Source: Chromatiales bacterium
GTDB lineage: Bacteria; Pseudomonadota; Gammaproteobacteria; CAMYNG01
Direction of reading: 5' to 3'
Length of the DNA: 64,000 nt
NCBI GenBank assembly: GCA_027005735.1
Contig: JALTLF010000218.1
Coordinates: 22,935-86,934 of the forward strand
Positions 43,013 to 60,536 of the stretch are shown piece after piece. Below the pieces are notes generated by a model. The model did no database searches. It was not told the origin of the DNA and saw nothing but the letters and a program-made list of their open reading frames with translations. The position numbers were made by a program, and so were the translations under genes. Position 1 is the first letter of the stretch; the number at the start of each line of letters is the position of its first letter.

Positions 43013-44161
43013 ATGGAATTATCCAAAGAAGACAGCCTGCGCCTGCACGTGTTGCTCAACCAGTCCCTCAAGGCGGTGCGTATCGACGAGGGGGCCATGG
43101 TGCTCCACGCGCTCACGGACCGCGGCGCGGCGCAGGTGCCCCTCAACCCCAACTGCCGCGACGAGCAGTACCTGCGGCTGGTCCGGGAGTTGCTCTCCAC
43201 CCACGTGCTGGGTTCGCCCGGGGGCTACCCGGTGTTTCTGCGCCGCTGGACGCGTATGGGACAGGCTCGCGCTGAAAGCCTGGACAAGCTGCTGCTGCTG
43301 GGTGAACCGGAAGCGGTGGTGGCCGTGGTTCACGCGGAGGGCCTGACCAACGAGCTGGCCCGCCGGGCATGGTGGATCATGCCCACGGCGGACAATGCGC
43401 GGCGCATGCTGGAGCGCGAGGACGTGGTACGCGGCGACATGGGGCCGGAACTGGCGGCCTTCCTGGTGGAATTTTTGCCCTTCGAGGAAGACTCGCGGGA
43501 CATTCTCGACTCCATCCGCCTCGTCCTGCAGCCGGGACTCATCGACGAGGCCACGCGGGACAAGCTGTGGCGGCGGGCGCGACAGAAATCGGTATACTAC
43601 GTGGGGTTTTTGAGCGGCGCGCCCCACACGCTGCCGGAACAGGCGGCGCCCCATCCGCTGCGCGAGGCCCTGCAGCCGGATGCCGATGCCGCGGCGCCGC
43701 TGGCGGAACTGGTGACGCTGATGCGCCAGGTCCTCGATGCCCCCGCGCAGACCTTCCTGCGGGTGGCGCTGGAGGCCATGCGCAAGCCGCGTGACCAGGA
43801 GACGGTGATCGCCCTGTTCAATGCCATCGGCCGGTATTTCCGCCCCTGCGAGCAGGTGCCACGCCAGGACACCATCGAGGCGCAGGTGGCCGCCGTGGAC
43901 GCCGCGCTGGCGGACGGGGACAATGAGACCCTGGCGCAGTTTCAGGCCCGTTATCCGGCCCATGGCGGGATGCTGCGGGCGGCGATGATCATCGGGGGTC
44001 TCTCGGACAGGATGCTCTCGCCCATCCTGTCGCGCACCGACGCCATGGGCAGCGTCATGCGCCGCAAGCTGGAGCCCGTGATGACGCCCGTGAGTGAACA
44101 GCTACAGGTATTACGCCCCGACGGGGGGCAGCGCGGCAGGCGCAGCGGGGCGCGAGGATGA
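43013..44161 (+). CDS. Conserved hypothetical protein (382 aa)
   Basis: Long GC3-biased ORF. Its stop overlaps the start of the next ORF (ATGA), so the two probably form an operon. Confidence 0.55.
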   Translation: MELSKEDSLRLHVLLNQSLKAVRIDEGAMVLHALTDRGAAQVPLNPNCRDEQYLRLVRELLSTHVLGSPGGYPVFLRRWTRMGQARAESLDKLLLLGEPEAVVAVVHAEGLTNELARRAWWIMPTADNARRMLEREDVVRGDMGPELAAFLVEFLPFEEDSRDILDSIRLVLQPGLIDEATRDKLWRRARQKSVYYVGFLSGAPHTLPEQAAPHPLREALQPDADAAAPLAELVTLMRQVLDAPAQTFLRVALEAMRKPRDQETVIALFNAIGRYFRPCEQVPRQDTIEAQVAAVDAALADGDNETLAQFQARYPAHGGMLRAAMIIGGLSDRMLSPILSRTDAMGSVMRRKLEPVMTPVSEQLQVLRPDGGQRGRRSGARG

Positions 44162-45002: not shown

Positions 45003-46460
45003 ATGGATTTTTTACCCATATTCATTGATATCCGCCACAAGCCGGTGCTGGTGGCGGGTGGCGGCAAGGTGGCGGCGCGCAAGGTGCGCCTGCTGCGCAA
45101 GGCCGGCGGCGAGGTCACCGTGGTGGCGCCGGAACTGTGCGAGGAACTGGCGGAACAGCGCGCGGCGGGCCACATCCGCCATGTGGCGCGCAAGTTCGAG
45201 GCCGCCGATCTGGATACGCCGGTGCTCATCATCGCCGCCACCGATGACCGCGAGGTCAACCGGGCGATCTCCGAGGGCGCTCGTGCCGCGCGCGTGCCGG
45301 TCAACGTGGTGGACGATCCGGAACTGTGCGGGTTTATCATGCCCTCCATCATCGATCGATCGCCGGTACAGATCGCCATCTCCACCGGCGGTTCCTCGCC
45401 GGTACTGGCGCGCCTGCTGCGCTCCAAGCTGGAGAGTTGTACCCCCGCCACCTACGGCAAGCTGGCCACCCTGGTGAATGACTACCGCGACCGGGTCAAG
45501 GAACGTTTTGCCGACGAGTCACAGCGCAAGCAGTTCTGGGAACAGATCCTCGAGGGTGAGGTGGCGGAACTGGTGTTCGCCGGCAAGGAGAAGGCCGCCC
45601 GCGAGGCGCTGTCGGCCGCCATCGCGTCCGCCGATCCCAGCGGCATGCCGAAGGGCGAGGTCTACCTGGTGGGTTCCGGTCCCGGCGATCCCGATCTTCT
45701 TACCTTCCGCGCCCTGCGCCTGATGCAGCAGGCCGACGTGGTGATCTATGATCGCCTGGTCTCGAAGCAGATCCTCGAGCTGGTGCGGCGCGACGCGGAA
45801 CTGGTCTATGCCGGCAAGGAACGGGACAACCACACCCTGCCACAGGAGCATATCAACCAGCTACTGGTGAAATATGCCCGCAAGGGTTATCGCGTATTGC
45901 GCCTCAAGGGCGGAGATCCCTTCATCTTCGGTCGCGGGGGCGAGGAGATCGCTACCCTCATGGAGGAGGGGATCGGCTTCCAGGTGGTGCCGGGGATCAC
46001 CGCCGCCGCCGGCTGCGCCTCCTATGCGGGGATCCCGCTGACCCACCGTGATCACGCGCAGAGTTGCGTCTTCGTCACCGGCAATCTCAAGGACGGTTCG
46101 CTGGATCTCAACTGGCAGGCGCTGGCCCATCCCAACCAGACCATCGTCTTCTACATGGGCCTGCATGGCGTACAGACCATTTGCACAAAACTCGTGGAAC
46201 ACGGGCTGGCCGCCGATACGCCGGCGGCGCTGGTGCAACAGGGGACGACGCCCAACCAGCGGGTGTTCACCGGCACGCTGGCAAGCCTGCCCGAGCTGGT
46301 GGAAAGCAACGACGTCAGGCCACCGACGCTGATCATCGTCGGTTCGGTGGTTTCACTGCAGGACAAGCTCGCGTGGTTCGAGCCGGTGACCACGGAGACC
46401 GAACAGAAGGACATCTTCAGTAGCAATCCCGGCCGTGACGGGAAAAGCGAAAAGAGGTAG
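45003..46460 (+). CDS. cysG: Siroheme synthase CysG (precorrin-2 dehydrogenase/ferrochelatase fused to uroporphyrinogen-III C-methyltransferase)
   Basis: N-terminal Rossmann VLVAGGGKVAARK plus the SUMT domain (GEVYLVGSGPGDPDLLTFRALRLMQQADVVIYDRLV, VRLKGGDPFIFGRGGEE). Confidence 0.9.
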   Translation: MDFLPIFIDIRHKPVLVAGGGKVAARKVRLLRKAGGEVTVVAPELCEELAEQRAAGHIRHVARKFEAADLDTPVLIIAATDDREVNRAISEGARAARVPVNVVDDPELCGFIMPSIIDRSPVQIAISTGGSSPVLARLLRSKLESCTPATYGKLATLVNDYRDRVKERFADESQRKQFWEQILEGEVAELVFAGKEKAAREALSAAIASADPSGMPKGEVYLVGSGPGDPDLLTFRALRLMQQADVVIYDRLVSKQILELVRRDAELVYAGKERDNHTLPQEHINQLLVKYARKGYRVLRLKGGDPFIFGRGGEEIATLMEEGIGFQVVPGITAAAGCASYAGIPLTHRDHAQSCVFVTGNLKDGSLDLNWQALAHPNQTIVFYMGLHGVQTICTKLVEHGLAADTPAALVQQGTTPNQRVFTGTLASLPELVESNDVRPPTLIIVGSVVSLQDKLAWFEPVTTETEQKDIFSSNPGRDGKSEKR

Positions 46461-46795: not shown

Positions 46796-47284
46796 TCAGG
46801 CAGCCTGTGGTCCAAGCTGTTCCTTGCTGACCTTCGAGGCGAAGAAGGCGTCGGCGGCCTCGATATCGACGACATTGCCGTTCTCGTCCACCAGTTCCTG
46901 TTCATAGTCGTTCCAGCCGCGCAGGCCGGTCTTGAGCGAGCGCACGGATCGGTAGCCCATGCGTTGCATGACCTCACAGGCCAGCGCGCTGCGGTTTCCG
47001 GAGCGACAGATGACGATGATGTCGCGTTCGCGCGCCTGTACCAGGTCGGGAATGGTCTCTTCGTAACCCCAGTCACAGGCGCTCTCGAGGATCCCGCGCG
47101 GCACGTTGATGGAGTTGCGGATGTGCATGGCGGCATATTCGTGGGGCTCGCGAACGTCCAGCAGCAGGACATCGCTGTAGCCCGCGATCAATTCCTCCAG
47201 GTCCCAGGGAAAGATCTCTTCGACGTGTTCGAGACTCTCTGCCACGAGTTGCGAAAAACTCATTGTCGGACTTGCTTCAGACAT
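46796..47284 (-). CDS. Rhodanese-domain sulfurtransferase
   Basis: LLLDVREPHEY...CRSGNRS (catalytic Cys loop). Start at ATG MSEASP with an AAGAGGA SD; the longer track ORF begins at a TTG. Confidence 0.75.
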   Translation of the reverse strand: MSEASPTMSFSQLVAESLEHVEEIFPWDLEELIAGYSDVLLLDVREPHEYAAMHIRNSINVPRGILESACDWGYEETIPDLVQARERDIIVICRSGNRSALACEVMQRMGYRSVRSLKTGLRGWNDYEQELVDENGNVVDIEAADAFFASKVSKEQLGPQAA

Positions 47285-47924
47285 TGCGTGTAATTCCTCT
47301 TTCAACGGCGATCACCGCGGCTTCGACGCGGGAGTGTACATCAAGTTTACGCAGGATGGCCTTGACATGAAGCTTGACGGTGCCATCCGATATACCGAGG
47401 TTGCGCGCGATAACCTTGTTGCTCTGACCCTCGGCAAGATGGCACAGGATCTCCATCTCGCGCGGGGTGAGACTGGAAAACGGCGACTCCGGCACCTCGA
47501 CCTCCTGGTCTCCGTCCTGTACCACCTTGGCCAGTACGCCGGTGAGGGTGGGGGCGACCACGGTCTTGCCCGTGGAGATGTCCTTGAGGACCTGTTCCAG
47601 TTCCTCGGGTTCGATGTCCTTGAGCAGGTAACCCTGGGCGCCATTGCGCAGGGCATCGACGAGATCCTTTTCATCGTCGCTGGTGGTGAGCATGACGATG
47701 GGCATCTCGGCGCCATTCTTGCGCAGCTCGCGCAGTACTTCGAGGCCGGACATGTCGGGCATGCGCATGTCGAGCAGGATAACGTCGGGGTTCTGTTCCT
47801 CGGCAAGACGCAGGCCCTCCTGCCCCGAGCCGGCCGTGCCGACGACGGTGATGCCGCGACTCTCAAGCAGGGTCTGCAGGCCGACGCGGAACAGGGCGTG
47901 GTCGTCGATGAGTAATACGCGCAT
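47277..47924 (-). CDS. NarL/FixJ-family response regulator
   Basis: REC domain (LLIDDHALFRVGL...VILLDMRMPDMSG) plus LuxR HTH (LTPREMEILCHLAEGQSNKVIARNLGISDGTVKLHVKAILRKL). Confidence 0.88.
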   Translation of the reverse strand: MRVLLIDDHALFRVGLQTLLESRGITVVGTAGSGQEGLRLAEEQNPDVILLDMRMPDMSGLEVLRELRKNGAEMPIVMLTTSDDEKDLVDALRNGAQGYLLKDIEPEELEQVLKDISTGKTVVAPTLTGVLAKVVQDGDQEVEVPESPFSSLTPREMEILCHLAEGQSNKVIARNLGISDGTVKLHVKAILRKLDVHSRVEAAVIAVERGITRNV

Positions 47925-47935
47925 AGTTTCTATCG

Positions 47936-49567
47936 TTAAAGTGTCGTTGACAGGCCGCCGGGGCCCTTGTGCTCGTCCGCGAAGGGATAGCGGAAGGTAA
48001 GGATAACACGTGTGCCTTCGCCGGGCTCGCTCTCCAGGCTCAGATCGCCATGCAGCTTCTGTGCGCGCTCGCGCATGATGGAAATGCCGATGTGGTTGCC
48101 GCCGACCCCGGCACGCGCGCTGATGTCTTCACCCAGGCCCACGCCATCGTCTTCCACCAGTACCAGGTAATTGTTGTCGGCCTCCTGACGCAGGAGAATG
48201 CGCACGGCGCGCGCCGAGCTGTGCTTGCGGATGTTGGACAGGGATTCCTGCACGATGCGCAGGATCTGCAACTCCAGGTTGGCCGGCAGCTTGGCCTCAT
48301 TCCATTCGTCCTGAAGGAAAACGAGGATATTGTTGTGGGCGCGGTATTTCTTGATCATGTCCTGCAGCGCGGGTACCAGGCCGCGCTCATCCATGGGGGT
48401 GCGGAAGTGATTCAGCAGCTCGCGCAGTTCCTGGTTGGCCTCCTCGATACTGTTCTTGAGCTGGATGACCTCGCTGTTGGAAATCGTCGACCAGGTGGCG
48501 AGGGATTCCTCCATGGTGCGGATCTGGAAACGCAAGCTGGCCAGCGTCTGCGCCAGTGAGTCGTGCAGTTCATGCGCCAGCAGGTTGCGTTCCTCGATGA
48601 TGGACAGGCGACGGGCTTCGTCGTCCAGACGCGCCTTTTCGATGGCCATGCCAAGGTGGCGGCCGATACTGGTGAGCAGTTCCTGCATGTCGCCCTGCAT
48701 GAGGGAATCCGGGTTGCTGGTATCGACGAAGAGATTGAAGACGCCGAGGGGCCGGCCCTGGTAGTCGAGGGGGACCGAGATCATCTCCGTGTTACCATCC
48801 TGGAACAGGGGCTGGCCGACGAATTTTTCACAGTCGGCATGGCGCGTGTGGCACACCGCCGTGCCCTCGTTGAGGGAACTGCCGCAGAAACAGCGATCTA
48901 CCGGGACAAGGGATTCTTCCTTCAGGACTTCCTCGCGAAAGCCGGCGCTGGCCACCATGCGTAACTGGTTGTTTTCGGTGAGCAGGCGGATCGAACCCGC
49001 GCGCGCGCCCAGTAGGCTCATGAGGATATCGAGGAAACGGCTGAGGAGATCTTCCACGGTAAGCGCGCCGTTGATATTGGCGGCAACCTCGTAGAGGATC
49101 TTCAGCGAACGGCTCTTCTGTTCGAGGCTCTCGGTCTGCTTGCGAATGCGGACCTCCATTTCCTGCGACAGGGTCTGCAGATCCTCGCTGAGGGCATTGA
49201 TGTCCCGCGCCAGCTCGGTGAATTCCCCATGGCCGGGGATGGGCAGGCGGGCGTTGAGGTGCCCGGCGCGCATGCGCAGTGCCCAGTTGCGCATGTGAGA
49301 GAGCGGCGTGAAGAGATCGGCGCGGATGCGCTGCGCGATGACCACCAGCAGCAGGACGGAGACGCCGATCAGCGCGAGTTGCAGCCATATTACGGGCCAG
49401 AAGAAGCTCAGCACCAGCGCCAGGAAGGTGAGCCCGAGGCCAAGGAAAGGGACGAACAGGCGGCTCTTGATGAGGCTCAGGCCCTTGTGGCGCCATCCCC
49501 GGGCCGGCGGGATCACCCGTGTGAGGAAATGCTTCCTCTGGCTGTTCGTCTGTACCGCTGCTTTCAT
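47936..49567 (-). CDS. NarX/NarQ-type sensor histidine kinase: 2 TM / HAMP / Cys-rich GAF / HisKA_3 / HATPase
   Basis: Short periplasmic loop, HAMP (LTFLALVLSFF...), GAF containing VDRCFCGSSLNEGTAVCHTRHADC, H-box LAHELHDSLAQTLASL (HisKA_3), then the N and G boxes (ESLSNIRKHS, DDGVGL, GISIMRERA). Confidence 0.85.
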   Translation of the reverse strand: MKAAVQTNSQRKHFLTRVIPPARGWRHKGLSLIKSRLFVPFLGLGLTFLALVLSFFWPVIWLQLALIGVSVLLLVVIAQRIRADLFTPLSHMRNWALRMRAGHLNARLPIPGHGEFTELARDINALSEDLQTLSQEMEVRIRKQTESLEQKSRSLKILYEVAANINGALTVEDLLSRFLDILMSLLGARAGSIRLLTENNQLRMVASAGFREEVLKEESLVPVDRCFCGSSLNEGTAVCHTRHADCEKFVGQPLFQDGNTEMISVPLDYQGRPLGVFNLFVDTSNPDSLMQGDMQELLTSIGRHLGMAIEKARLDDEARRLSIIEERNLLAHELHDSLAQTLASLRFQIRTMEESLATWSTISNSEVIQLKNSIEEANQELRELLNHFRTPMDERGLVPALQDMIKKYRAHNNILVFLQDEWNEAKLPANLELQILRIVQESLSNIRKHSSARAVRILLRQEADNNYLVLVEDDGVGLGEDISARAGVGGNHIGISIMRERAQKLHGDLSLESEPGEGTRVILTFRYPFADEHKGPGGLSTTL

Positions 49568-49675
49568 GTCTGCCGTGCCCGCGGGGCGGAGTAGGGTAAA
49601 ACCGCTCTAATATATCTGTTTTTGCCTCCCGGCGACAGCCCGCGGCCGGGGGTTTCGACAAAAATATCAATATAT

Positions 49676-51115
49676 TCAGTCGGTTATTGCGTAGATGCCG
49701 GGGCGGAATATGGCCTTGCCGGACTGCAGGAACTCGGCGGTATAGGGATCGACGGCATTCTCCAGCTCCTCGCACCAGGAGGGGTGGCTGTAGCTGATGT
49801 CCTTGAGGAACCACAGGCCGCGCGGCGACTGGCAGGCGGCGGTAAGCATCTGGATCTGCTCGCCGGCCTCGGGGCCGACGATGCAGCCGCCCAGCATCTG
49901 GCCGGTTTCCTCGTCGTGGATCACCTCCACGAAACCCTCGGCGTCGTGGCGTCCCAGAGCCTTGGCCGAGCCGGCGTAATTGGCGCGCGCCACGTCGGGT
50001 TCGAAGCCGGCGGACTCGGCCATGTCCTCGCTGAGACCGACGGCAGCGATCTCCAGCGCGGTATCGATGACCACCGGCACGCGGCGGTAGTTGCGCGCCA
50101 GCTCGTTGCCGTTCACGGCGTTGGTTGCCGCCACCTTGGCATCGTGCAGGGCCGCGTTGGCGGTCATGGGACCTTCCTTGACGTCACCCACGGCGTAGAT
50201 CCCGGCGACGCTGGTCTCGAGAAACTCGTTGGTTTCGATGAAGCCGCGCGCGTCACGCTGGATGCCCGCGGCGTCAAGACCAAGATCCGCGGTGCGCGGT
50301 TCCCGTCCGATGGCCACAAGCACACAGTCGAATTCCGCCTGGCTGTCATCGGAGAAGCCAAGCGTGATCGTCTCCCCCTGTCGCTGGCAGCGGGTGACCG
50401 CCGTCTCCAGGCGGTGGTGGATGCCCAGGCGATCGAACTTGCGCTGCAACATGCCGCTGGCGCGCAGCGGGATCTCCGGTTTGTTGAGCAGGCGTGGCGC
50501 GGTGTCGACGATAGTCACCTCGCTGCCGAACTGATGACACAGATAGCCCAGTTCCACACCGATGGCGCCCCCGCCGACGATGAGTATGCGGCGGGGAAGC
50601 GCCCCGCTGATACGCATGAAATCGCCGGAATGGATGATCTTCTCGCCGTCGTGACGACAGACGGGATGTGGCCGGGGGCGCGAGCCGGTGGCAAGGATGA
50701 TGCGCTCGGCCTGCAGATGAAGCGTTTTCCCTTCGCCGCATACCTCAACGCTGCGGGGATCGAGGAGGCGCGCCGCGCCGGCGAACATGTTGACGCCGAG
50801 ATGGCGCAACCAGAGGGGGAAGTGGCCACGGATACCGCTGATGACTTCTTCCTTGTGGCGCCAGGCGCCGGCGAAATCACCCTGGGTGGTACCCTTCAGG
50901 CCACGGCCCTGGAGTGAATTGACGTCCTCGATGAGGCTGGCGATATAGAGCATCGCCTTCTTGGGTATGCAACCCTGGTTGAGGCAGGTGCCACCCGGCA
51001 AGCCCTTTTCGATCAATGCCACGCGCGCACCGAGATGCGCCGCGGTCACCGCGGCCTTGTAGCCGCCCGGACCACTGCCAATGACGATGAGATCGAAGCG
51101 GGATCGCGAAGTCAT
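49676..51115 (-). CDS. Class-I pyridine-nucleotide-disulfide oxidoreductase (dihydrolipoamide-dehydrogenase-like flavoprotein)
   Basis: DLIVIGSGPGGYKAAV (FAD site), redox-active GGTCLNQGCIPKK, NAD(P) site ILIVGGGAIGVELG, C-terminal dimerisation domain with an HPSWCEE variant of the His-Glu dyad. It begins 12 nt after the dsrR stop, so it is probably the last dsr-operon gene. Confidence 0.85.
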   Translation of the reverse strand: MTSRSRFDLIVIGSGPGGYKAAVTAAHLGARVALIEKGLPGGTCLNQGCIPKKAMLYIASLIEDVNSLQGRGLKGTTQGDFAGAWRHKEEVISGIRGHFPLWLRHLGVNMFAGAARLLDPRSVEVCGEGKTLHLQAERIILATGSRPRPHPVCRHDGEKIIHSGDFMRISGALPRRILIVGGGAIGVELGYLCHQFGSEVTIVDTAPRLLNKPEIPLRASGMLQRKFDRLGIHHRLETAVTRCQRQGETITLGFSDDSQAEFDCVLVAIGREPRTADLGLDAAGIQRDARGFIETNEFLETSVAGIYAVGDVKEGPMTANAALHDAKVAATNAVNGNELARNYRRVPVVIDTALEIAAVGLSEDMAESAGFEPDVARANYAGSAKALGRHDAEGFVEVIHDEETGQMLGGCIVGPEAGEQIQMLTAACQSPRGLWFLKDISYSHPSWCEELENAVDPYTAEFLQSGKAIFRPGIYAITD

Positions 51116-51126
51116 GAGGGCGGTTT

Positions 51127-51441
51127 CTACTCGGCAGGCGGCGTGTAGTTGGGATCGTTTGGGTTGAGAAACACGAACTCCCTGTTGCCGTCGTCGAGTT
51201 CAACGAAGTCGATGGTCATACCGACGACCAGGTCGAGACTGACCGGTGAAACGACGATATCGATACCCTCGGACTTGAAATGGTTGTCGCCATCACGGGA
51301 CTCATCGTCGAAACCGATGCCGTAGTGGATGCTGCCATCGGGGTTACGTTGTGCGGCAATTCGCAGGGCCATGCCCTCCATGCGTCCTTCCTTGGCGGAA
51401 TGGCGAATTTGTGCGGCGGCTTCCGGGGTTATGGTGATCAA
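51127..51441 (-). CDS. dsrR: DsrR (IscA/HesB-like protein lacking the Fe-S cysteines)
   Basis: MITITPEAAAQIRH...GMALRIAAQRNPDGSIHYGIGFDD...DIVVSP: A-type-carrier fold with no conserved Cys, in the expected position after dsrN. Confidence 0.8.
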   Translation of the reverse strand: MITITPEAAAQIRHSAKEGRMEGMALRIAAQRNPDGSIHYGIGFDDESRDGDNHFKSEGIDIVVSPVSLDLVVGMTIDFVELDDGNREFVFLNPNDPNYTPPAE

Positions 51442-51465: not shown

Positions 51466-52878
51466 TCAACAAATGTCGGCCTGGCGGGCCTCTGCCTTGA
51501 CCGAGGCGACAAAGGCCAGAAAGCGCGTCACCCAGGGGTTCTGCCAGGTGTGACGTAGATGGCTGTAGTTGCCCAGCACGTTGCGATAGACGATACCGTC
51601 GTGGCCGTCCCCAATCCCCTTGCCGCGCTTCATGCGATAGGCAAAGCGCAGATCCGGGGCGAGTGCCTCCAGCGCGGAGTAGTGGAACTCGTGGGCAGGC
51701 ACCGGTCGTGCGGGCTTGATGGCAGCCGGGACGGGCCAGGGGAAATCCGCGGTCTCTTCCAGGAACACGTAGCCGCGGCCCTGGGGTCGCGCGTGCATGA
51801 CCGTATCGGCCGGCAGGACCCCGGCCATGGGGTACACGGCTTCCCCCCAGCGCAGGCTGCGGCTCAGGTACATGAGTCCGCCACACTCGGCATAGACCGG
51901 CAGTCCGGCCTCGATGGCGGCGGCAATGGCCTTGCGCAGGCCCTCGTTGGCGCTGATCTGCGCCGCATGGGTCTCGGGGAAACCGCCGCCGATGAACAGG
52001 CCGTCGAGGGGGGGCAGGGCGGTGTCGCGCATGCTGTTCAACCGGACCAACTGTGCACCCTGATCGCGGAAGGCCTGCAGATCGCCGGGGTAGTAGAAAC
52101 CGAAGGCGTCGTCCTGGATGATGCCGATACGCAGACCGTCAAAGCGGGCCGACGGCCCTGGCTCCGGGGCCTGCATCGTCGGGACGGCAAGGGCGGGCGC
52201 CTGCTCGGCGACGCCAATCAGCGCGTCGAGCTCCACCTCGGCAGCGAGACGTCGGGCGAAGGTGTCGATGATCTCGTTGGAACCCGCCTGTTCGTTGCTC
52301 GGCACCAGCCCAAGGTGACGCTCGTCGATATGCAGGCTCTCATCACGCCCCACGGCACCCAGCACCGGGAGATCGGTATAGCGCTCGATAATGGCGCGCA
52401 GCTTGCCCTCATGACGGCTGCCGCCCACCTGGTTGAGGATCACGCCGCGGATGGCGACTTCGGGATCGAAGGCCTGGAAACCCTGCAGTAGGGCCGCCAC
52501 GCCCCGCGTCATGCCACGGGTATCGACCACCATCACCACCGGACTGGCAACGAGTTTCGCCAACGCGGCGTTGCTGTTGCTGCCGTCGATATCGACGCCG
52601 TCGTGCAGGCCCTTGTTGCCCTCGATCAGGCTGAGATCGGCATCGCGCGAGTAGTGGGCAAGCTTGTAACGGATCTCGTCACTGCCCTGGGTGTGGAAAT
52701 CGAGGTTGTGGCAGGGGCGGCCGGCGGCCTGGCCCAGCCACAGCGGGTCGATATAGTCAGGCCCCTTCTTGAAGGGTTGGACCGCCAGGCCACGGCGCCT
52801 GAGCGCCGCGCACAGACCAACGGCGATGGTGGTCTTGCCGGAGGACTTGTGCGCCGCGGAGATCAGCAGGTGAGCCAT
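51466..52878 (-). CDS. dsrN: DsrN, siroheme amidase (cobyrinic acid a,c-diamide synthase homologue)
   Basis: MAHLLISAAHKSSGKTTIAVGL (CobB/CbiA P-loop) and a C-terminal glutamine amidotransferase domain (ECGGLMYL). Confidence 0.85.
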   Translation of the reverse strand: MAHLLISAAHKSSGKTTIAVGLCAALRRRGLAVQPFKKGPDYIDPLWLGQAAGRPCHNLDFHTQGSDEIRYKLAHYSRDADLSLIEGNKGLHDGVDIDGSNSNAALAKLVASPVVMVVDTRGMTRGVAALLQGFQAFDPEVAIRGVILNQVGGSRHEGKLRAIIERYTDLPVLGAVGRDESLHIDERHLGLVPSNEQAGSNEIIDTFARRLAAEVELDALIGVAEQAPALAVPTMQAPEPGPSARFDGLRIGIIQDDAFGFYYPGDLQAFRDQGAQLVRLNSMRDTALPPLDGLFIGGGFPETHAAQISANEGLRKAIAAAIEAGLPVYAECGGLMYLSRSLRWGEAVYPMAGVLPADTVMHARPQGRGYVFLEETADFPWPVPAAIKPARPVPAHEFHYSALEALAPDLRFAYRMKRGKGIGDGHDGIVYRNVLGNYSHLRHTWQNPWVTRFLAFVASVKAEARQADIC

Positions 52879-52935: not shown

Positions 52936-54168
52936 TCAGGCCGATGCGGTATCGGCGGCCCCGGACTTGTGATAAGGATCGACCATGTTGTCTGCCAGGC
53001 TGATGGGCAGGAACTTGAGCACCTTCACCGCGAACAGCACCATGAACAGGGCCACGGCCACGCCACCCAGTCCCAGCATGACCTCGGGCCAGCTCGGCGA
53101 ATAGGGTGCCACCACGCCCTCGGTAAAGGTACTGGAGGCCTCGTAACCGGGGAAGATCACCAATGGGTAGGCCTGGCCGCCAATCACGATGACGTAGACC
53201 TGCGCGAGGCCGCCAATGATGACGAGCAGGGCGGCAAGACCGATGAGCTTGCGGTTTTTGCCCCAGCTCGGGTGGTAGAGCAGGGCCAGCGGTACCAGCG
53301 AGCCCAGGACGATCTGCACCCACCAGAACAGGGTCGTGTAGATGCCCCCGTCGCGCAGGATGAAGGCCTCCACGCCGTGATGCTCGGTGGCATAGAGATT
53401 GGTCAGGTGGAAGGCCAGCACGAAATACAGGACGCCGGCGATAAACACCCCGAGCAGGTTCTTCAGCCGCCGGATGGCGAGATCACCCAGGGGACGCCGG
53501 GTACCATTGTAGAGACCCATCAGCAGCAAAATGAAGATCGCCAGTCCGAACGAGAAGGACATGGCGATGAACAGGGGCGCCATGATGGCGGCATCGTAGC
53601 CCTGGCGCGCCACCAGGAATCCAAAGATGGAGCCGGTACCGGTGGTCAGGATGAGGCGCCACAGGAAGGCGAAGAAGCCGACCGGCTTGCTGTACTTGCC
53701 CAGCGAGTGCTGCATCATGGTCCACAGGTAGACGGCCACGATGGCAAAGAACCCGTTGTACAGGATGATGTTCCACGCAAAGATGGATTTGAAGTTGTAA
53801 TAGGTCATTGCGACGACGAGCCGCTCGGGACGTCCCAGGTCGAGCACCAGTACCGTCAGGCCACCGGCGAGCAGGCAGATGGCAAGCAGGCCGGAGAGCC
53901 GCGCCAATGGCTTGTACTGGTACTTCCCGAACACGGAGGCAATAGAGGCGACGTTGAGGGCGCCGGAAGCAGCCACGATGAGAAAGATGGCGAACACGTG
54001 CGGAGTTCCCCACACGATCTGGTTGCTCATGCCCGTGATCCAGTGGCCTTCATGCTCCATGAGGTACCAGCCATAGCCGGCGACGGCCATCAGGCCGACG
54101 AGGGCAAGCAGAATGGCCCAGTAACCGCCGGAACGTCCTTCGATCTCCTGGTAGTCGTAGTGATTCAT
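52936..54168 (-). CDS. dsrP: DsrP (NrfD/PsrC-like integral membrane quinone-interacting subunit)
   Basis: 410 aa with about 10 TM helices, of the NrfD family; position after dsrO. Confidence 0.85.
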   Translation of the reverse strand: MNHYDYQEIEGRSGGYWAILLALVGLMAVAGYGWYLMEHEGHWITGMSNQIVWGTPHVFAIFLIVAASGALNVASIASVFGKYQYKPLARLSGLLAICLLAGGLTVLVLDLGRPERLVVAMTYYNFKSIFAWNIILYNGFFAIVAVYLWTMMQHSLGKYSKPVGFFAFLWRLILTTGTGSIFGFLVARQGYDAAIMAPLFIAMSFSFGLAIFILLLMGLYNGTRRPLGDLAIRRLKNLLGVFIAGVLYFVLAFHLTNLYATEHHGVEAFILRDGGIYTTLFWWVQIVLGSLVPLALLYHPSWGKNRKLIGLAALLVIIGGLAQVYVIVIGGQAYPLVIFPGYEASSTFTEGVVAPYSPSWPEVMLGLGGVAVALFMVLFAVKVLKFLPISLADNMVDPYHKSGAADTASA

Positions 54169-54174
54169 AACCTG

Positions 54175-54930
54175 CTAAATCCCCTTGTAATGGATGCCCG
54201 GGTTGAGTCCCAGGTCTGCACGGATTTGCCGTGATCCAAATTTCTTGAGAGTCTGTGATAGGCGGCTGTCGGGATCGTTGAGATCGCCGAAGACAAAGGC
54301 CGCGTGACCTTCCTCGTTACAGGCCTCGGCGCAGGCCGGGACGGCGTTTTCACCGTCGCGGTCAACACGGTGCACGCACAGGGTGCAGGACTCCACCGTG
54401 CCCTTGCCGCGAGGCGCGTTCACGCTCTGATCCTGCAGGACTTCATGGATGAAGGATCGTGCCTTGTAGGGGCAGGCCATCATGCAGTAGCGACAGCCGA
54501 TACAGATATGCTTGTCCACCAGGACGATGCCATCCGCGCGGCGGAAGGACGCCCCGGTGGGACAGACATCCGCGCAGGGCGGCGTTTCGCAGTGCTGACA
54601 CAGCATGGGCAGGGAATAGGTCGCACCGGTGGCCTTGTGCTTGAGGTTGACCTTGCGGATCCACTGCGCCTGCTGGTCCGGGCGGGAGTTTACCTCGTTG
54701 GAACCCCAGCCGTTTTCCTGCTGGCAGGCGGTGACACAGGCGTTACAGTCCTTGGCGCACTTGTTGGTATCGATCAACATGCCCCAGCGATTCTTCGCGC
54801 TGACGGGTTCGTCGGCCGGTTTGCCGTGGGCCAGATCGACAAGAAATACGCCGGGCGCGACGGAAAGGCCAGTGAGGGCGGCGGCCTGACCAAGGAACTT
54901 ACGCCGCGTGGCGTTGACGTCTTTGCTCAT
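54175..54930 (-). CDS. dsrO: DsrO (Tat-exported 4x[4Fe-4S] ferredoxin)
   Basis: Tat motif TRRKFLGQAAALTGLSVA and multiple CxxCxxCxxxCP clusters (CAKDCNACVTAC, CQHCETPPCADVCP, CIGCRYCMMACP, CTLCVHR). Stop overlaps the dsrJ start. Confidence 0.88.
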   Translation of the reverse strand: MSKDVNATRRKFLGQAAALTGLSVAPGVFLVDLAHGKPADEPVSAKNRWGMLIDTNKCAKDCNACVTACQQENGWGSNEVNSRPDQQAQWIRKVNLKHKATGATYSLPMLCQHCETPPCADVCPTGASFRRADGIVLVDKHICIGCRYCMMACPYKARSFIHEVLQDQSVNAPRGKGTVESCTLCVHRVDRDGENAVPACAEACNEEGHAAFVFGDLNDPDSRLSQTLKKFGSRQIRADLGLNPGIHYKGI

Positions 54931-55415
54931 TCTTCCTCCTCCCTGGTGGCGACACGCACTGCTTCATCCACGAGGTCAAGCGGCTGGGCAAGGGGCGTCG
55001 GACGTCCTTCGGCGCCAGTCAACTCCAGCGGCTGCCCGGTGGGACCATCGTTGTGGCATTCGAAGCAGTCGATGGTGACACCGGCGTAATTGTGACAGGA
55101 GGAGCAGAAGTGCTCGTCGCTGCCATACCGAACCCGCTCCTGTCCTGCCTCGGCCTTCGGCACGTGGCAATTCAGGCACTGCGCAAGGGAATGTTGCGGC
55201 GTGCGAATACCCTCATGCATGGTGGCGTCACGTTGGTGCAGGATGAACTCGAAGTGACGTTTACGCATGACGTCGGTGGGCTCGACACACTTCACGCCTT
55301 TCCCCTTGGGGACCACCGGCACCGGCGTATCCGCCATGGCAGGCAAGGCGAAGGAAAGTAACACCGCCACCAGCAGGGTGGCGATGCGCTTATTGTTATA
55401 ATACAAAGACTTCAT
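54927..55415 (-). CDS. dsrJ: DsrJ (periplasmic triheme cytochrome c)
   Basis: Signal peptide and three CxxCH motifs (CLNCH, CSSCH, CFECH). Confidence 0.88.
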   Translation of the reverse strand: MKSLYYNNKRIATLLVAVLLSFALPAMADTPVPVVPKGKGVKCVEPTDVMRKRHFEFILHQRDATMHEGIRTPQHSLAQCLNCHVPKAEAGQERVRYGSDEHFCSSCHNYAGVTIDCFECHNDGPTGQPLELTGAEGRPTPLAQPLDLVDEAVRVATREEEE

Positions 55416-55432
55416 TGGGCTTCCCCGTTGGC

Positions 55433-57373
55433 TTATTCACCCATACCCATTTCGATGTAACCGGTCGGGCAAACATCGGCGCAGATGTGGCAACCAATAC
55501 ACTTCGTGTAGTCGGTGGCAACGTAGCGACCCAGGGTGCGCTTATCCTTCGGTACACGATAGACTGCATCCTGCGGGCAGTAGATGACGCAGTTGTCACA
55601 CTCGAAACACATACCGCAGCTCATGCAACGGTTCGCCTCGGCAACGGTCTCTTCCTCGCTGAGGCCCTTCATACGCTCTTCAAAGTGACCCAGAACCTCG
55701 TCTGCCGTGGGGACGTCTTCCCTGCGTTTGATACGATCGACGTGTTCGAAGTGACCAAGGAAGAGGTTGTCGGCCGGGATGATCTCCTGGCGGGCACGGT
55801 CTTCGAAGTTGTGGATTGCGAAATTGGCTTCCGAGGTACCGCGGGTCTCCTCGTGGTTGTACTCCTCGGGCGCCAGGCCGGTTTCACGCAGCTTGGCCAG
55901 CAGGTCGAAGTGGTGCTTGTCCACCTTGGGACGCTTGCCAAGTTCTTCATTGCGGAAATAGCGATCGATGCTCTCGGCTGCGACCGAGGCCTGGCCGATG
56001 GCCGTGGTCAAAAGGTGAGGACGTACGATATCGCCGGCGACGAAGTGGCCTTCCTTGCCCGGGACGCGATAGTGCTGGTCGGCATCGATGAAGCCCTTGC
56101 CATTGTCCAGATCCTCGAGGCCGGAGAGGTCGCCCTTCTGACCGATGGCGGCGACGATCAGGTCGGCCTCGATGTCGAACTCCGTGCCTTCCTTCGGCGT
56201 CTTGCCGTCGGCTTCCAGCTCAACGACGCGCAGGGCAACGGCACGACCGTTGTCGTCCTTGATGACCTTGACCGGGTTCAGGCAACCGCGGATATTGACA
56301 CCTTCGCGCAGGGCGTCCTGGATTTCGTGCTCGGCGGCGTTCATCTGCTCGATGGGCGAACGCGAGATGAGCGTTACCGTCGCGCCCATACGCTTGGCGG
56401 TGGCGGCAACGTCGTGCGCGGCGTGGCCGAGGACGATGTTTTCCGGACGGTCCTGTTCGTTCATGTTGGTGATGTGACCCAGACGACGGGCGACCGAGAC
56501 CACGTCGATGGAGGTATCACCACCACCGATGACGACGACTTTCTCGGAAACCGCCTTCAGGCGGCCTTCGTTGAAGGCGCGCAGGAAGTCCACGCCGGTG
56601 AGGCAGTTGGGCGCATCGGAGCCCTCGATGGGGAGCTGACGACCGGAGTGGGTGCCGACGGCCCACAGGATAGCGTCGTACTCCTTCTCCAGGTCTTCTA
56701 CCTTGACGTCGCGGCCCACGCGGGTCTTCAGTTTTACTTCGACGCCCATATCGACGATGCGCTGATTCTCGCCGTCGAGGACGGAACGCGGCGTACGATA
56801 ACCGGGGATGCCGTAGCGCATCATGCCGCCCAGCTCCTCGCGCTCGTCGAAGACGGTGCAGGCATGGCCCATTTTCCGCAACTGGTAGGCCGCGGCCATG
56901 CCGGCGGGGCCACCTCCGATGATGGCCACCTTCTTGCCGGATTCCTTTTCGGGCGGCGCGAAGGACATCTTGTTCTCCAGCGCCCAGTCGCCGATGAACT
57001 GCTCTACGGCGTTGATACCAACGCGGTCATCCACTTCGTTGCGGTTGCAACCGGCCTCGCAGGGTGCCGGGCAGACACGGCCCATGACGGCGGGGAAGGG
57101 GTTGGCGGCCGTGGAGCGCTCGAAGGCGTACTGCTGCCAGCTCTCGCCCTCGGCGGGCTTCTCAATGCCGCGGACGATATCCAGCCAGCCGCGGATGTCT
57201 TCACCAGCGGGGCAACTGCCCTGGCAGGGCGGAGTACGGTGAACGTAGGTCGGGCACTTGTGCGACCAACCGGCCTGGAAGATCGCCTCCTGCCAGTCGT
57301 CGTGTTGATAATCCCCGTCCTTAAACTTACGGAACGTATGTTCTTTGTGCATATCTTCCGGGGAAGTCGCCAT
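55433..57373 (-). CDS. dsrL: DsrL (NAD(P)H:acceptor oxidoreductase, GltD-like with C-terminal ferredoxin domain)
   Basis: N-terminal Fe-S Cys clusters (CPTYVHRTPPCQGSCPAGEDI, CPAPCEAGC), FAD/NAD sites VAIIGGGPAGMAAA and VVVIGGGDTSID, C-terminal 2x[4Fe-4S] CMSCGMCFECDNCVIYCP and CIGCHICADVCP. Confidence 0.9.
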   Translation of the reverse strand: MATSPEDMHKEHTFRKFKDGDYQHDDWQEAIFQAGWSHKCPTYVHRTPPCQGSCPAGEDIRGWLDIVRGIEKPAEGESWQQYAFERSTAANPFPAVMGRVCPAPCEAGCNRNEVDDRVGINAVEQFIGDWALENKMSFAPPEKESGKKVAIIGGGPAGMAAAYQLRKMGHACTVFDEREELGGMMRYGIPGYRTPRSVLDGENQRIVDMGVEVKLKTRVGRDVKVEDLEKEYDAILWAVGTHSGRQLPIEGSDAPNCLTGVDFLRAFNEGRLKAVSEKVVVIGGGDTSIDVVSVARRLGHITNMNEQDRPENIVLGHAAHDVAATAKRMGATVTLISRSPIEQMNAAEHEIQDALREGVNIRGCLNPVKVIKDDNGRAVALRVVELEADGKTPKEGTEFDIEADLIVAAIGQKGDLSGLEDLDNGKGFIDADQHYRVPGKEGHFVAGDIVRPHLLTTAIGQASVAAESIDRYFRNEELGKRPKVDKHHFDLLAKLRETGLAPEEYNHEETRGTSEANFAIHNFEDRARQEIIPADNLFLGHFEHVDRIKRREDVPTADEVLGHFEERMKGLSEEETVAEANRCMSCGMCFECDNCVIYCPQDAVYRVPKDKRTLGRYVATDYTKCIGCHICADVCPTGYIEMGMGE

Positions 57374-57454
57374 GTCTGTATCTCCTGTGAATTATCCGGA
57401 CCGTGTCCGATTAACAACTAAAACTCAAAATTGGATGAATTGCGTATCCAGTTA

Positions 57455-58978: not shown

Positions 58979-59030
58979 GATATTTTCCTCGATCCTGTTC
59001 TGCGCGCTATGGCAGTTTCGTTATGCTTTT

Positions 59031-59786: not shown

Positions 59787-59862
59787 CCTAGTAAAATCCT
59801 CTGTTTTTATACTTCGATTAGGAAAGAGGGGGTTGAAAACCCCCTCTCGTCGTTCCTAAGCG

Positions 59863-60195: not shown

Positions 60196-60227
60196 TGTTT
60201 AGATCTCCTCGTTAGCAGATTGAATCG

Positions 60228-60536
60228 TTATAGCCAGGGCTGCACGTTGTCGTGGTCAGCCACCAGATCAACGAACCCGCCGTAATCCACAACCTTGACG
60301 CCATCCAGTAGCTGGTCGTCACGAATACCACGCGCTTTCATGTCAGGACCGAGCACGTAGAAGGTCAGGCCCTTCATTGCCGCGGTTACCTTGTCCGAAA
60401 TCACGGTACCCTTGGTTGCGCCATAAACACCGTCTTCAAACAGAAGGACAGCACCACCTTCCTTCGCCAGGCGAATACAGGCATCCAGCGAATTTTTCTC
60501 GAAGGGGGATTTGTTTACTGTGTGTAATTTCGACAT
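60228..60536 (-). CDS. dsrH: DsrH
   Basis: 102-aa DsrH/TusB family protein directly after dsrF. Confidence 0.85.
   Translation of the reverse strand: MSKLHTVNKSPFEKNSLDACIRLAKEGGAVLLFEDGVYGATKGTVISDKVTAAMKGLTFYVLGPDMKARGIRDDQLLDGVKVVDYGGFVDLVADHDNVQPWL

What the first reader, a model, noticed from the sequence alone, without database searches (positions are those of the whole stretch)
49676..51115. Lipoamide-dehydrogenase-like flavoprotein disulfide reductase as the terminal gene of the dsr operon, in the position where Allochromatium has dsrS
The canonical Allochromatium vinosum order is dsrABEFHCMKLJOPNRS. Here dsrR is followed 12 nt later by a class-I FAD/NAD(P) disulfide reductase with an intact CxxxxC and an HPSWCEE C-terminal motif carrying an extra Cys. 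An Lpd-like enzyme in the Dsr context could reduce a protein disulfide or trisulfide such as DsrC or a DsrE/TusA persulfide relay, or regenerate a thiol carrier. It also echoes the Lpd-like genes found with sHdr/LbpA sulfur-oxidation clusters. The functional coupling to Dsr is inferred purely from operon position.
Basis: partly seen in the sequence, partly recalled or inferred. Interest (0 to 1): 0.6.

Follow-up and report, generated by a model that had tools for sequence, protein, structure and literature searches.

The report
Dsr-operon-specific lipoamide-dehydrogenase-like disulfide reductase
The gene is real and encodes an intact NAD-linked flavoprotein disulfide reductase of a small, distinct, uncharacterised subfamily that, wherever we could see its neighbours, directly follows the sulfur-oxidation (dsr) genes, so it looks like an overlooked part of that pathway rather than the housekeeping enzyme it resembles.

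Summary
Window 49676-51115 (minus strand) is a 479-aa class-I flavoprotein disulfide reductase. It starts 11 nt after dsrR and follows a complete dsrABEFHCMKLJOPNR set. It has C44-LNQG-C49, an NAD-type second Rossmann fold and H444-PSWC-E449-E.

It is not a canonical E3. It scores below NCBI's lipoamide-dehydrogenase cut-off (375.6 against 408.8 bits). It branches outside the clade holding E. coli Lpd and 74 ordinary Lpds. In a 1.84-billion-protein library its family is two 50%-identity clusters, separated by a gap (466 to 305 bits) from all other relatives.

The dsr linkage is the main result. In all 50 metagenome loci with readable upstream DNA, and in nine further loci, the gene directly follows dsrR or dsrN on the same strand. 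These include the isolates Sulfurirhabdus autotrophica and Thiobacter aerophilum and the most divergent family member. Gaps are mostly -11 to +35 nt. Its divergence tracks that of DsrN, DsrP and DsrO.

dsrS is not replaced; it lies at 43013-44161 on the other strand. The extra Cys448 is frequent but not invariant, whereas Cys411 and Cys428 are better conserved.

The substrate is inferred only, with DsrC's Cys pair favoured. No searchable paper mentions the gene.

The parts
49676..51115 (-). Lpd-like class-I flavoprotein disulfide reductase, 479 aa (here called LpdX); member of a dsr-operon-specific subfamily
   Evidence: ORF; Pfam Pyr_redox_2 and Pyr_redox_dim; TIGR01350 375.6 bits, below the 408.8 cut-off; discrete family
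51062..51079 (-). FAD-binding GxGxxG (G13-S-G-P-G-G18)
   Evidence: Invariant or nearly invariant columns in alignment A1
50969..50986 (-). Redox-active pair C44-L-N-Q-G-C49
   Evidence: Invariant in 28/28 and 60/60; aligns with the CLNVGC of E. coli Lpd
50504..50575 (-). Second Rossmann fold G181-G-G-A-I-G186 through D204; the acidic residue is where Lpd has Glu and glutathione reductase has Arg, which predicts NAD(H) use
   Evidence: E or D in 59/60; alignment with E. coli Lpd, Gor and SthA
49883..49885 (-). Cys411 (GGC-I-V-G), a family-specific Cys replacing Ala of Lpd and His of Gor
   Evidence: 28/28 in the unbiased alignment; kept in the divergent representative P0217; alignment
49832..49834 (-). 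Cys428 (A-A-C-Q-S), a family-specific Cys
   Evidence: 28/28, 56/60, kept in P0217
49766..49786 (-). H444-P-S-W-C448-E449-E450: His-Glu catalytic dyad of the dimerisation domain, with an interposed Cys
   Evidence: H, P, S, W and E449 in 60/60; C448 in 57/60, but Thr in 5/28
49688..49708 (-). Conserved C-terminal tail F-R-P-G-I-Y-A, which has no counterpart in E. coli Lpd, Gor or SthA
51116..51126 (-). 11-nt dsrR-lpdX spacer (AAACCGCCCTC); no terminator or promoter
   Evidence: homologous junctions are mostly -11 to +35 nt
51127..51441 (-). dsrR (IscA-like, no Cys)
   Evidence: PF01521; sequence
51466..52878 (-). dsrN (sirohaem a,c-diamide synthase type)
52936..63764 (-). dsrABEFHCMKLJOP; includes DsrC (59863-60195) with C-terminal Cys98 and Cys109
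49568..49675 (-). 108-nt spacer between lpdX and the sensor kinase gene; no canonical intrinsic terminator or sigma-70 promoter found
   Evidence: RNA fold z-score 0.13
46796..49567 (-). NarX/NarL-like sensor kinase (HAMP-GAF-HisKA_3), response regulator and rhodanese; linked to lpdX in many lineages in either orientation
43013..44161 (+). dsrS, present but relocated and on the other strand
   Evidence: Homologues of 51-55% identity are named 'sulfur reduction protein DsrS'
45003..46460 (+). cysG (sirohaem synthase); in betaproteobacteria this gene follows lpdX directly

Best explanation
LpdX is a FAD enzyme built like lipoamide dehydrogenase. It belongs to a discrete subfamily that is an integral, co-inherited gene of oxidative dsr operons in beta- and gammaproteobacterial sulfur oxidisers.

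Shown: every catalytic element of a class-I dithiol/disulfide oxidoreductase is intact. These are the FAD fold, the C44/C49 redox pair, a second Rossmann fold with an NAD-type acidic residue, and the His444/Glu449 dyad. The gene sits 11 nt after dsrR and has kept that position across the whole family.

Inferred: it is translated from the dsr transcript. It moves two electrons between NAD(H), FAD and the C44-C49 disulfide. By thiol-disulfide interchange it then acts on a cysteine-based carrier of the cytoplasmic Dsr sulfur relay.

The most likely partner is the flexible C-terminal arm of DsrC (Cys98/Cys109 here), which is chemically analogous to the dithiol arm of a lipoyl domain. The enzyme would either keep that arm (or a persulfide on it) in the reduced, loadable state at the expense of NADH, or run the other way. 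The family-specific Cys411, Cys428, Trp447, Cys448 and FRPGIYA tail would form the substrate-specific part of the site.
For: - Domains and motifs.
- Not a canonical E3: TIGR01350 scores 375.6, below 408.8. In a neighbour-joining tree the family is monophyletic (20/20) and lies outside the clade with E. coli Lpd and 74 ordinary Lpds.
- Discrete family: in the 50%-identity library the hits are 597 and 466 bits plus fragments, then drop to 305 bits at 37% identity.
- Synteny in metagenomes: 45 loci with dsrR and 5 with dsrN directly upstream, out of 52 loci with at least 350 bp of upstream DNA. The other two are one interrupted gene seen twice.
- Synteny elsewhere: the same position in Ectothiorhodospiraceae bacterium 2226; in Sulfuriferula, Acidiferrobacteraceae and an unnamed MAG; in Sulfurirhabdus autotrophica, Thiobacter aerophilum and MAG locus L186; and in the 47%-identity member P0217.
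- Junctions are mostly -11 to +35 nt, several overlapping.
- Pairwise divergence correlates with DsrN (r = 0.76), DsrP (0.87), DsrO (0.64) and DsrL (0.45), Mantel p <= 0.002, at similar mean divergence.
- GC3 is like that of its neighbours.
- A bona fide DsrC with both Cys residues is in the operon.
- A rhodanese gene lies downstream. A glutaredoxin gene is called in the identical contig L081.
Against: - There is no biochemical or expression evidence.
- The accepted Dsr model already assigns the DsrC redox steps to DsrMKJOP and the NAD link to DsrL, and both are encoded here.
- The model operon of Allochromatium vinosum ends in dsrS, with no such gene in the published order (PMC3368242, PMC4205035). 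The enzyme therefore cannot be universally essential.
- Cys448 is replaceable.
- In betaproteobacteria the gene is flanked on both sides by sirohaem genes, which fits a maturation role equally well.
- Whether these genomes carry a separate canonical lpd was not tested.
Confidence: 0.5

Rival explanations
1. It reduces a low-molecular-weight disulfide, persulfide or polysulfide. This would make it an NADH-dependent reductase that regenerates the thiol carrier bringing sulfane sulfur into the cytoplasm, or that releases sulfide from it. The role would be comparable to that of glutathione amide reductase in purple sulfur bacteria.
For: - The active site is that of a small-substrate disulfide reductase. 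The HPSWCEEL motif resembles the HPTAAEE motif of E. coli glutathione reductase.
- Glutathione amide reductase 2R9Z is a clear homologue at 205 bits.
- The acidic residue at position 204 predicts NADH use.
- Rhodanese and glutaredoxin genes are nearby.
Against: - All Lpd profiles and structures score higher than any glutathione-type reductase.
- No thiol-biosynthesis gene is linked.
- The strict linkage to dsrN/dsrR, rather than to sulfur-import or relay genes, gives no specific support.
Confidence: 0.2
2. It belongs to a cofactor or maturation module at the 3' end of the operon (dsrN, dsrR, lpdX, cysG). It would supply or remove reducing equivalents during sirohaem/siroamide or Fe-S maturation of DsrAB, rather than acting in sulfur turnover.
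For: - The gene always follows dsrN/dsrR.
- In betaproteobacteria it is followed directly by cysG or a cobA-type methylase. In L186 it overlaps its neighbours on both sides, by 4 and 14 nt.
- cysG is also close by in the window.
Against: - No known step of sirohaem or siroamide synthesis uses a CxxxxC flavoprotein.
- DsrR has no Cys here.
- In gammaproteobacteria cysG is on the other strand, beyond the regulator genes.
Confidence: 0.12
3. It is the ordinary E3 (dihydrolipoyl dehydrogenase) of the 2-oxoacid dehydrogenase or glycine cleavage complexes and merely lies next to dsr. Alternatively, it is the E3 that reoxidises a lipoyl protein such as LbpA.
For: - The best profile match is lipoamide_DH and the best solved structure is Thermus E3 2EQ6 at 294 bits.
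- JGI pipelines label homologues 'dihydrolipoamide dehydrogenase'.
- An E3 is linked to archaeal hdr-like clusters (PMC6067878).
Against: - It scores below the curated cut-off, and NCBI names homologues only 'family protein' or 'NAD(P)/FAD-dependent oxidoreductase'.
- It lies outside the canonical Lpd clade and shares only 29% identity with E. coli Lpd.
- No gene call or Pfam hit typical of E1, E2, GcvH or LbpA appears in the window or in the loci whose gene calls were listed.
- Linkage to dsr held in every locus that could be checked.
Confidence: 0.06
4. It is a protective or sensory flavoprotein, not a disulfide reductase in the strict sense. Examples are RclA- or MerA-like reduction of a metal or oxidant, or handling of sulfite adducts. 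It may feed a redox signal to the adjacent GAF-domain sensor kinase.
For: - A NarX/NarL-like two-component pair neighbours the gene in most lineages.
- Extra conserved Cys residues are present.
- MerA and RclA profiles match at 271 and 200 bits.
Against: - The His-Glu dyad typical of dithiol/disulfide catalysis is invariant. MerA is known to lack this dyad and to use a C-terminal Cys pair instead; that statement is background knowledge, not tested here.
- There is no C-terminal Cys pair.
- The kinase genes vary in orientation and are absent in L087.
Confidence: 0.07

Closest known systems
Dihydrolipoyl dehydrogenase (E3; e.g. Thermus thermophilus 2EQ6, E. coli Lpd)
   Same: It has the same four-part architecture, the same CxxxxC position, an NAD-type acidic residue and the HPxxxE dyad. 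This is the best profile and structure match.
   Different: - Only 29% identical to E. coli Lpd, and below the TIGR01350 cut-off.
- Forms a separate clade.
- Has Cys411, Cys428, Trp447 and Cys448, and a conserved FRPGIYA tail.
- Never seen beside E1, E2 or GcvH genes; always seen in dsr operons.
Dihydrolipoamide dehydrogenase genes linked to hdr-like (sHdr) sulfur-oxidation clusters of Sulfolobales (Liu et al. 2014, PMC4175335; Cao et al. 2018, PMC6067878)
   Same: An Lpd-type flavoprotein is encoded beside a cytoplasmic sulfur-oxidation system. It is proposed to link a dithiol carrier to NAD+.
   Different: Those genes are described as bona fide E3 acting on lipoyl-LbpA, and are reported absent from bacterial hdr-like clusters. 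Here there is no LbpA or hdr gene and the partner system is Dsr. Sequence relatedness to the archaeal genes was not tested.
DsrL (NAD(P)H:acceptor oxidoreductase of the same operon)
   Same: It is an NAD(P)-linked flavoprotein encoded in oxidative dsr operons.
   Different: DsrL is a glutamate-synthase-small-subunit-type Fe-S flavoprotein of 646 aa with no CxxxxC disulfide centre. The two are not homologous beyond the Rossmann folds.
Glutathione amide reductase of purple sulfur bacteria (2R9Z/2RAB)
   Same: It is a class-I reductase from a sulfur oxidiser, and the HP(S/T)xxEE motif is similar. Its NADH dependence is background knowledge, not tested here.
   Different: It is a weaker match than the Lpds (205 against 294 bits). 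No evidence links LpdX to glutathione amide.
Mercuric reductase and high-Mr thioredoxin reductase (class-I enzymes with an auxiliary C-terminal redox pair)
   Same: Class-I enzymes with extra Cys residues close to the active site of the partner subunit.
   Different: LpdX has a single, non-invariant Cys448 inside the His-Glu motif and no Cys in its C-terminal tail.

Membership tests
Class-I (group 1) flavoprotein disulfide reductases | N-terminal FAD Rossmann fold with GxGxxG | tested here: met
   G13-S-G-P-G-G18; Pyr_redox_2 E 1.7e-63
Class-I (group 1) flavoprotein disulfide reductases | Redox-active CxxxxC in the FAD domain | tested here: met
   C44-LNQG-C49, in 28/28 and 60/60; aligned with E. 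coli Lpd and Gor
Class-I (group 1) flavoprotein disulfide reductases | Central NAD(P) Rossmann fold | tested here: met
   G181-GGAIG; Pyr_redox E 1.2e-15; acidic residue 204 in 59/60
Class-I (group 1) flavoprotein disulfide reductases | C-terminal dimerisation domain carrying the His-Glu dyad (HPxxxE) | tested here: met
   Pyr_redox_dim E 3e-19; H444 and E449 in 60/60
Class-I (group 1) flavoprotein disulfide reductases | Homodimer with bound FAD and NAD(P)H-dependent disulfide reduction | not testable with these tools
   The AlphaFold monomer gave pLDDT below 50 for residues 345-479
Dihydrolipoyl dehydrogenase (E3, TIGR01350 equivalog) | Score at or above the curated cut-off of the equivalog model | tested here: not met
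   375.6 bits against a cut-off of 408.8
Dihydrolipoyl dehydrogenase (E3, TIGR01350 equivalog) | Groups with canonical Lpd sequences | tested here: not met
   In a neighbour-joining tree the family is monophyletic and outside the clade of E. coli Lpd plus 74 Lpds. No bootstrap was run. There is a gap in the representative library.
Dihydrolipoyl dehydrogenase (E3, TIGR01350 equivalog) | Genomic association with E1/E2, GcvH or another lipoyl protein | tested here: not met
   None seen in the window or in the loci with listed gene calls. The metagenome loci were probed only with window Dsr-region proteins, not with E1/E2/GcvH queries.
Dihydrolipoyl dehydrogenase (E3, TIGR01350 equivalog) | Oxidises dihydrolipoamide or lipoyl domains; is the cell's E3 | not testable with these tools
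Proteins of the oxidative dsr operon | Same strand as, and tightly spaced after, a dsr gene | tested here: met
   11 nt after dsrR; homologous junctions mostly -11 to +35 nt
Proteins of the oxidative dsr operon | Position conserved across distant lineages | tested here: met
   50 of 50 informative metagenome loci plus 9 further loci, covering both 50%-identity clusters of the family
Proteins of the oxidative dsr operon | Co-divergence with core Dsr proteins | tested here: met
   Mantel r of 0.45-0.87, p <= 0.002. Shared species phylogeny alone could give the same result.
Proteins of the oxidative dsr operon | Co-transcription with dsr and a sulfur-oxidation phenotype on deletion | not testable with these tools
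   Only the absence of terminator or promoter consensus could be shown
MerA / high-Mr TrxR type (auxiliary C-terminal redox pair) | Conserved C-terminal Cys-Cys or Cys-Sec pair | tested here: not met
   No Cys occurs after residue 448, and C448 is replaced by Thr/Ser in some members
sHdr/LbpA-associated E3 | Linked to hdr-like genes and a lipoate-binding protein | tested here: not met
   No such genes among the 20 largest window ORFs of 1-41 kb that were scanned, or in the loci with listed gene calls

The most novel reading that the evidence does not exclude
LpdX may be a soluble, NAD+-reducing branch of the Dsr pathway. It would oxidise the dithiol or persulfide form of DsrC's Cys arm to the disulfide or trisulfide and pass the two electrons to NAD+. 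This would do for DsrC what E3 is proposed to do for lipoyl-LbpA in the sHdr pathway. Chemolithoautotrophic sulfur oxidisers would gain NADH without reverse electron flow, and the pathway would have a route parallel to DsrMKJOP.
Probability: 0.15. Interest if true: 0.8.

Novelty: new variant of a known kind. Interest (0 to 1): 0.6.

Why it matters
The dsr operon is the textbook system for cytoplasmic oxidation of stored sulfur. Its published gene list (dsrABEFHCMKLJOPNRS) comes from one phototroph. This analysis indicates that many chemolithotrophic beta- and gammaproteobacteria carry one more conserved operon gene, an NAD-linked disulfide reductase. Genome papers that describe these clusters stop at dsrR (for example PMC5024460).

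How DsrC is cycled between its thiol, persulfide and trisulfide states, and how electrons reach NAD+, are open points of the oxidative Dsr model. An enzyme of exactly this chemistry, encoded in the operon, offers a direct handle on both. The test is feasible: the protein should be soluble, DsrC is easy to make, and isolates that carry the gene exist (Sulfurirhabdus autotrophica, Thiobacter aerophilum, Ectothiorhodospiraceae bacterium 2226).

Tried and rejected
- The single genome-contig scan was wasted.
- I replaced it with a hand-made family-specific DNA pattern on metagenome contigs. That pattern requires Cys411, so Cys411 conservation in that set is by construction. I rely on alignment A1 for that residue.
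- The promoter/terminator scan of 46.5-52 kb found nothing. Folding the 108-nt spacer gave z = 0.13. Rfam found only a tRNA at 26622.
- AlphaFold with the 28-sequence alignment gave a confident FAD/NAD half but pLDDT below 50 for residues 345-479. Nothing could be said about Cys411, Cys428, Cys448 or the tail, so no fold search was run.
- The tree's sister sequence (L001, a Burkholderiales MAG, 38% identity) lacks the family motifs and has no dsr context. It was dropped.
- The listing of cluster members gave almost no names.
- Two DsrS contexts, from Thiohalobacter and Thiohalophilus, did not contain the dsr operon. They gave no independent estimate of how many dsr operons carry the gene.
- Ten literature searches found no paper linking an Lpd-like gene to dsr. 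One search was badly designed and returned medical papers. Grimm et al. 2010 and 2011 are not held, and subscription literature was not searched.
- Rejected: LpdX as a replacement for dsrS.
- Rejected: Cys448 as an obligatory second redox centre.
Full report
**The feature itself**

An ATG-initiated ORF of 479 codons occupies window 49676..51115 on the minus strand. Pfam assigns Pyr_redox_2 (E 1.7e-63), Pyr_redox (1.2e-15) and the dimerisation domain Pyr_redox_dim (3e-19).

The translation carries the following elements:
- the FAD motif G13-SGPG-G18;
- the redox pair C44-LNQG-C49;
- a second Rossmann motif G181-GGAIG, followed by D204;
- H444-P-S-W-C448-E449-E450.

D204 sits where E. coli Lpd has Glu and E. 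coli glutathione reductase has Arg, so NAD(H) use is predicted.

The gene starts 11 nt (51116-51126) after the stop codon of a 104-aa, cysteine-free IscA-like protein, DsrR. Upstream on the same strand lie dsrN, P, O, J, L, K, M, C, H, F, E, B and A. DsrA (622.6 bits) and DsrB (533.5 bits) score far above the NCBIfam cut-offs. DsrC carries both C-terminal cysteines, in ...QAC98KYAGLPKPTGC109V.

**Operon status in this genome**

No sigma-70-like promoter and no intrinsic-terminator-like site was found anywhere in 46.5-52 kb, and an 11-nt spacer cannot hold either.

Downstream, a 108-nt spacer separates the gene from a NarX-like sensor kinase (HAMP-GAF-HisKA_3), a NarL-like regulator and a rhodanese, all on the same strand. 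That spacer has a GC hairpin but no U-tract, and it folds no better than shuffled sequence (z = 0.13). Whether transcription stops after the gene cannot be decided from sequence.

GC and GC3 of the gene (0.651, 0.817) match those of its neighbours.

**It is not a canonical E3**

- The best NCBIfam model is lipoamide_DH (TIGR01350), but at 375.6 bits it falls below the curated 408.8-bit cut-off. MerA, glutathione reductase and transhydrogenase models score 255-271 bits.
- The best solved structure is Thermus thermophilus E3 (2EQ6) at 294 bits. Other Lpds score about 200-240 bits and glutathione amide reductase 205 bits.
- Identity to E. coli Lpd, Gor and SthA is 29, 26 and 27%.
- In a neighbour-joining tree, 20 family members are monophyletic. 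The tree also held 75 ordinary Lpd-like sequences from diverse genomes and the three E. coli enzymes. The family branches outside the clade that holds E. coli Lpd and 74 of the 75 ordinary sequences. The tree has no bootstrap and is only indicative.
- An exhaustive HMMER search of 1.84 billion 50%-identity representatives is more telling. The family collapses to two full-length representatives (597 bits at 58% identity, 466 bits at 47%) plus fragments. Scores then drop to 305 bits at 37% identity and continue as a smooth continuum of ordinary relatives. The family is thus small, tight and discrete.

**Family signature**

In an alignment of 28 homologues taken from the homology search, the invariant positions include C44, C49, H444, P445, S446, W447 and E449. 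They also include two cysteines with no counterpart in Lpd, Gor or SthA:
- Cys411, in GGC-IVG, where Lpd has Ala and Gor has His;
- Cys428, in AAC-QS.

A C-terminal tail ending in F-R-P-G-I-Y-A is also conserved.

It is Gly in the divergent representative P0217, which also has Tyr for Trp447 but keeps Cys411, Cys428 and the tail. Cys448 is therefore not an obligatory second redox centre.

**Genomic context of the family (the main result)**

- The window's own protein occurs on MAG contigs with the same gene order.
- Homologues of 62-64% identity directly follow dsrR, or dsrN where dsrR is absent, on the same strand. This holds in the complete genome of Ectothiorhodospiraceae bacterium 2226, in a Sulfuriferula MAG, in an Acidiferrobacteraceae MAG and in an unnamed gammaproteobacterial contig.
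- A family-specific DNA pattern (G-Q-x-L-G-G-C-I-x-G-x-E-x-G-E-Q) retrieved 93 metagenome loci. I probed them with the window's Dsr proteins by tblastn.
- Of the 52 loci with at least 350 bp upstream of the gene, 45 have dsrR and 5 have dsrN immediately upstream on the same strand.
- The remaining two (L104, L116) are the same interrupted gene, whose 5' fragment lies at the contig edge. They are uninformative rather than exceptions.
- Junction lengths are mostly -11 to +35 nt, with many 4- or 11-nt overlaps.
- The two cultured species found by name, Sulfurirhabdus autotrophica and Thiobacter aerophilum, show dsr...N-R-lpdX-cysG.
- A further MAG shows dsrN-lpdX-cobA with overlaps on both sides.
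- The most divergent family representative (P0217) overlaps dsrN and is followed by the kinase and regulator genes.

Both 50%-identity clusters of the family are therefore dsr-linked.

Pairwise divergence of the protein correlates with that of DsrN (r = 0.76), DsrP (0.87), DsrO (0.64) and DsrL (0.45), with Mantel p <= 0.002. Mean divergence is similar (0.39 against 0.35-0.37). This fits long co-inheritance under comparable constraint, although shared species phylogeny alone could produce it.

What follows the gene varies: kinase-regulator-rhodanese on the same strand, cysG on the same strand, or the regulator pair on the opposite strand. The gene is the last position-conserved member of the operon.

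**dsrS**

The 382-aa ORF at 43013-44161 (plus strand) has no Pfam or NCBIfam match. Its homologues of 51-55% identity are named 'sulfur reduction protein DsrS' by NCBI and UniRef.

So dsrS is present, 5.5 kb away and on the other strand. The Lpd-like gene occupies the slot that dsrS has in Allochromatium but does not replace it. This agrees with the genome paper on Sulfurifustis and Sulfuricaulis, which lists dsrABEFHCMKLJOPNR with dsrS elsewhere and does not mention the following gene (PMC5024460).

**Literature**

Ten full-text searches combined dsr gene names with dihydrolipoyl or lipoamide dehydrogenase and related terms. None found a paper that links such a gene to the dsr operon. A 2024 survey of Dsr evolution does not mention it (PMC11406059), nor does the Thioalkalivibrio survey (PMC6382920).

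For the hdr-like pathway, Cao et al. 2018 proposed that an E3 reoxidises dihydrolipoyl-LbpA and so yields NADH. [quoted passage not shown]

Subscription papers are not covered by the search, so prior mention cannot be excluded.

**How it most likely works**

Shown: an intact lipoamide-dehydrogenase-type catalytic apparatus with a predicted NAD(H) preference, strict and ancient linkage to dsr, and a family-specific set of residues around the His-Glu motif and in the tail.

Inferred: the enzyme passes two electrons between NAD(H), FAD and the C44-C49 disulfide, and exchanges them with a cysteine-based carrier of the Dsr relay. I favour DsrC (confidence about 0.5 for a Dsr-dedicated dithiol/disulfide role with DsrC as the first candidate). 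Its mobile arm with two cysteines is the closest protein analogue of a lipoyl arm, and its thiol, persulfide and trisulfide cycling is the redox chemistry of the pathway.

The direction is open. The enzyme could keep DsrC loadable using NADH. Alternatively, in the more novel reading (probability about 0.15), it could oxidise DsrC and deliver NADH.

Points against:
- DsrMKJOP and DsrL already cover these steps in the accepted model.
- Allochromatium's published operon order contains no such gene.
- In betaproteobacteria the gene is flanked by sirohaem genes.

**Rivals**

- A reductase for a low-molecular-weight thiol carrier or for persulfide/polysulfide (0.2).
- A helper in sirohaem/siroamide or Fe-S maturation (0.12).
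- A protective or sensory flavoprotein tied to the adjacent two-component system (0.07).
- An ordinary E3 (0.06).

The last is disfavoured by the sub-threshold score, the separate clade, the absence of recognisable E1/E2/GcvH/LbpA neighbours and the invariable dsr context. It is not formally excluded, because I could not scan whole genomes for a second lpd.

**What failed**

- The genome scan was consumed by a generic motif.
- The AlphaFold monomer was unreliable for residues 345-479, with pLDDT below 50. The positions of Cys411, Cys428, Cys448 and the tail relative to the active site remain unknown.

**Verdict**

The feature is real. It is a new, context-defined subfamily of a well-known enzyme class, and an apparently overlooked conserved gene of oxidative dsr operons. 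Its substrate is unknown but readily testable.

Noticed in passing
window 43013-44706 (+): dsrS (382 aa; homologues are named DsrS, yet no Pfam or NCBIfam model matches) overlaps by 4 nt a conserved 182-aa ORF (44158-44706) with no family. The pair recurs together in the Thiohalobacter and Thiohalophilus genomes, away from the dsr operon, often with a Sel1-repeat protein, a MoxR-type AAA plus DUF2201 pair, glutaredoxin and DUF6866.
   Followed up: partly
window 41182-42411 (-); L085 7449-8450; also L115, L133, L143, L144, L172: A TrpD/YbiB-like Glycos_transf_3 protein lies 7 kb from the operon here. In several betaproteobacterial loci the same gene sits inside the operon, between dsrP and dsrN. 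It may be another unrecognised dsr-associated gene.
   Followed up: partly
window 46796-49567 (-): A NarX/NarL-like two-component pair (HAMP-GAF-HisKA_3 kinase plus GerE-type regulator) accompanies the 3' end of the dsr operon in most lineages examined, in either orientation. In gammaproteobacteria a rhodanese follows it. It is a candidate dsr regulator.
   Followed up: partly
window 46466-46789 (+): A 107-aa protein consists only of a LexA/UmuD-like S24 peptidase domain, with no DNA-binding domain. It is conserved next to cysG and the dsr region in several lineages (L081, L084, L086, L087).
   Followed up: no
window 39081-40169 (-): A DUF6866 protein (362 aa) recurs near dsr or dsrS in Ectothiorhodospiraceae-like, Acidiferrobacteraceae, Thiohalobacter and Thiohalophilus loci.
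   Followed up: no
window 28912-37017 (+): A cluster encodes a PP2C phosphatase, two trypsin-like protease/FHA proteins, a VWA protein and a Ser/Thr kinase with a PEGA domain. It appears unrelated to dsr.
   Followed up: no
L104 and L116 (metagenome loci): The Lpd-like gene appears interrupted. Its fragments are separated by about 1.4 kb in two near-identical contigs. This could be an insertion or an assembly artefact.
   Followed up: no
L087 15270-15611: A second DsrC-family gene lies next to a Cas6-like gene, about 4 kb downstream of the Lpd-like gene, in an unnamed gammaproteobacterial contig.
   Followed up: no
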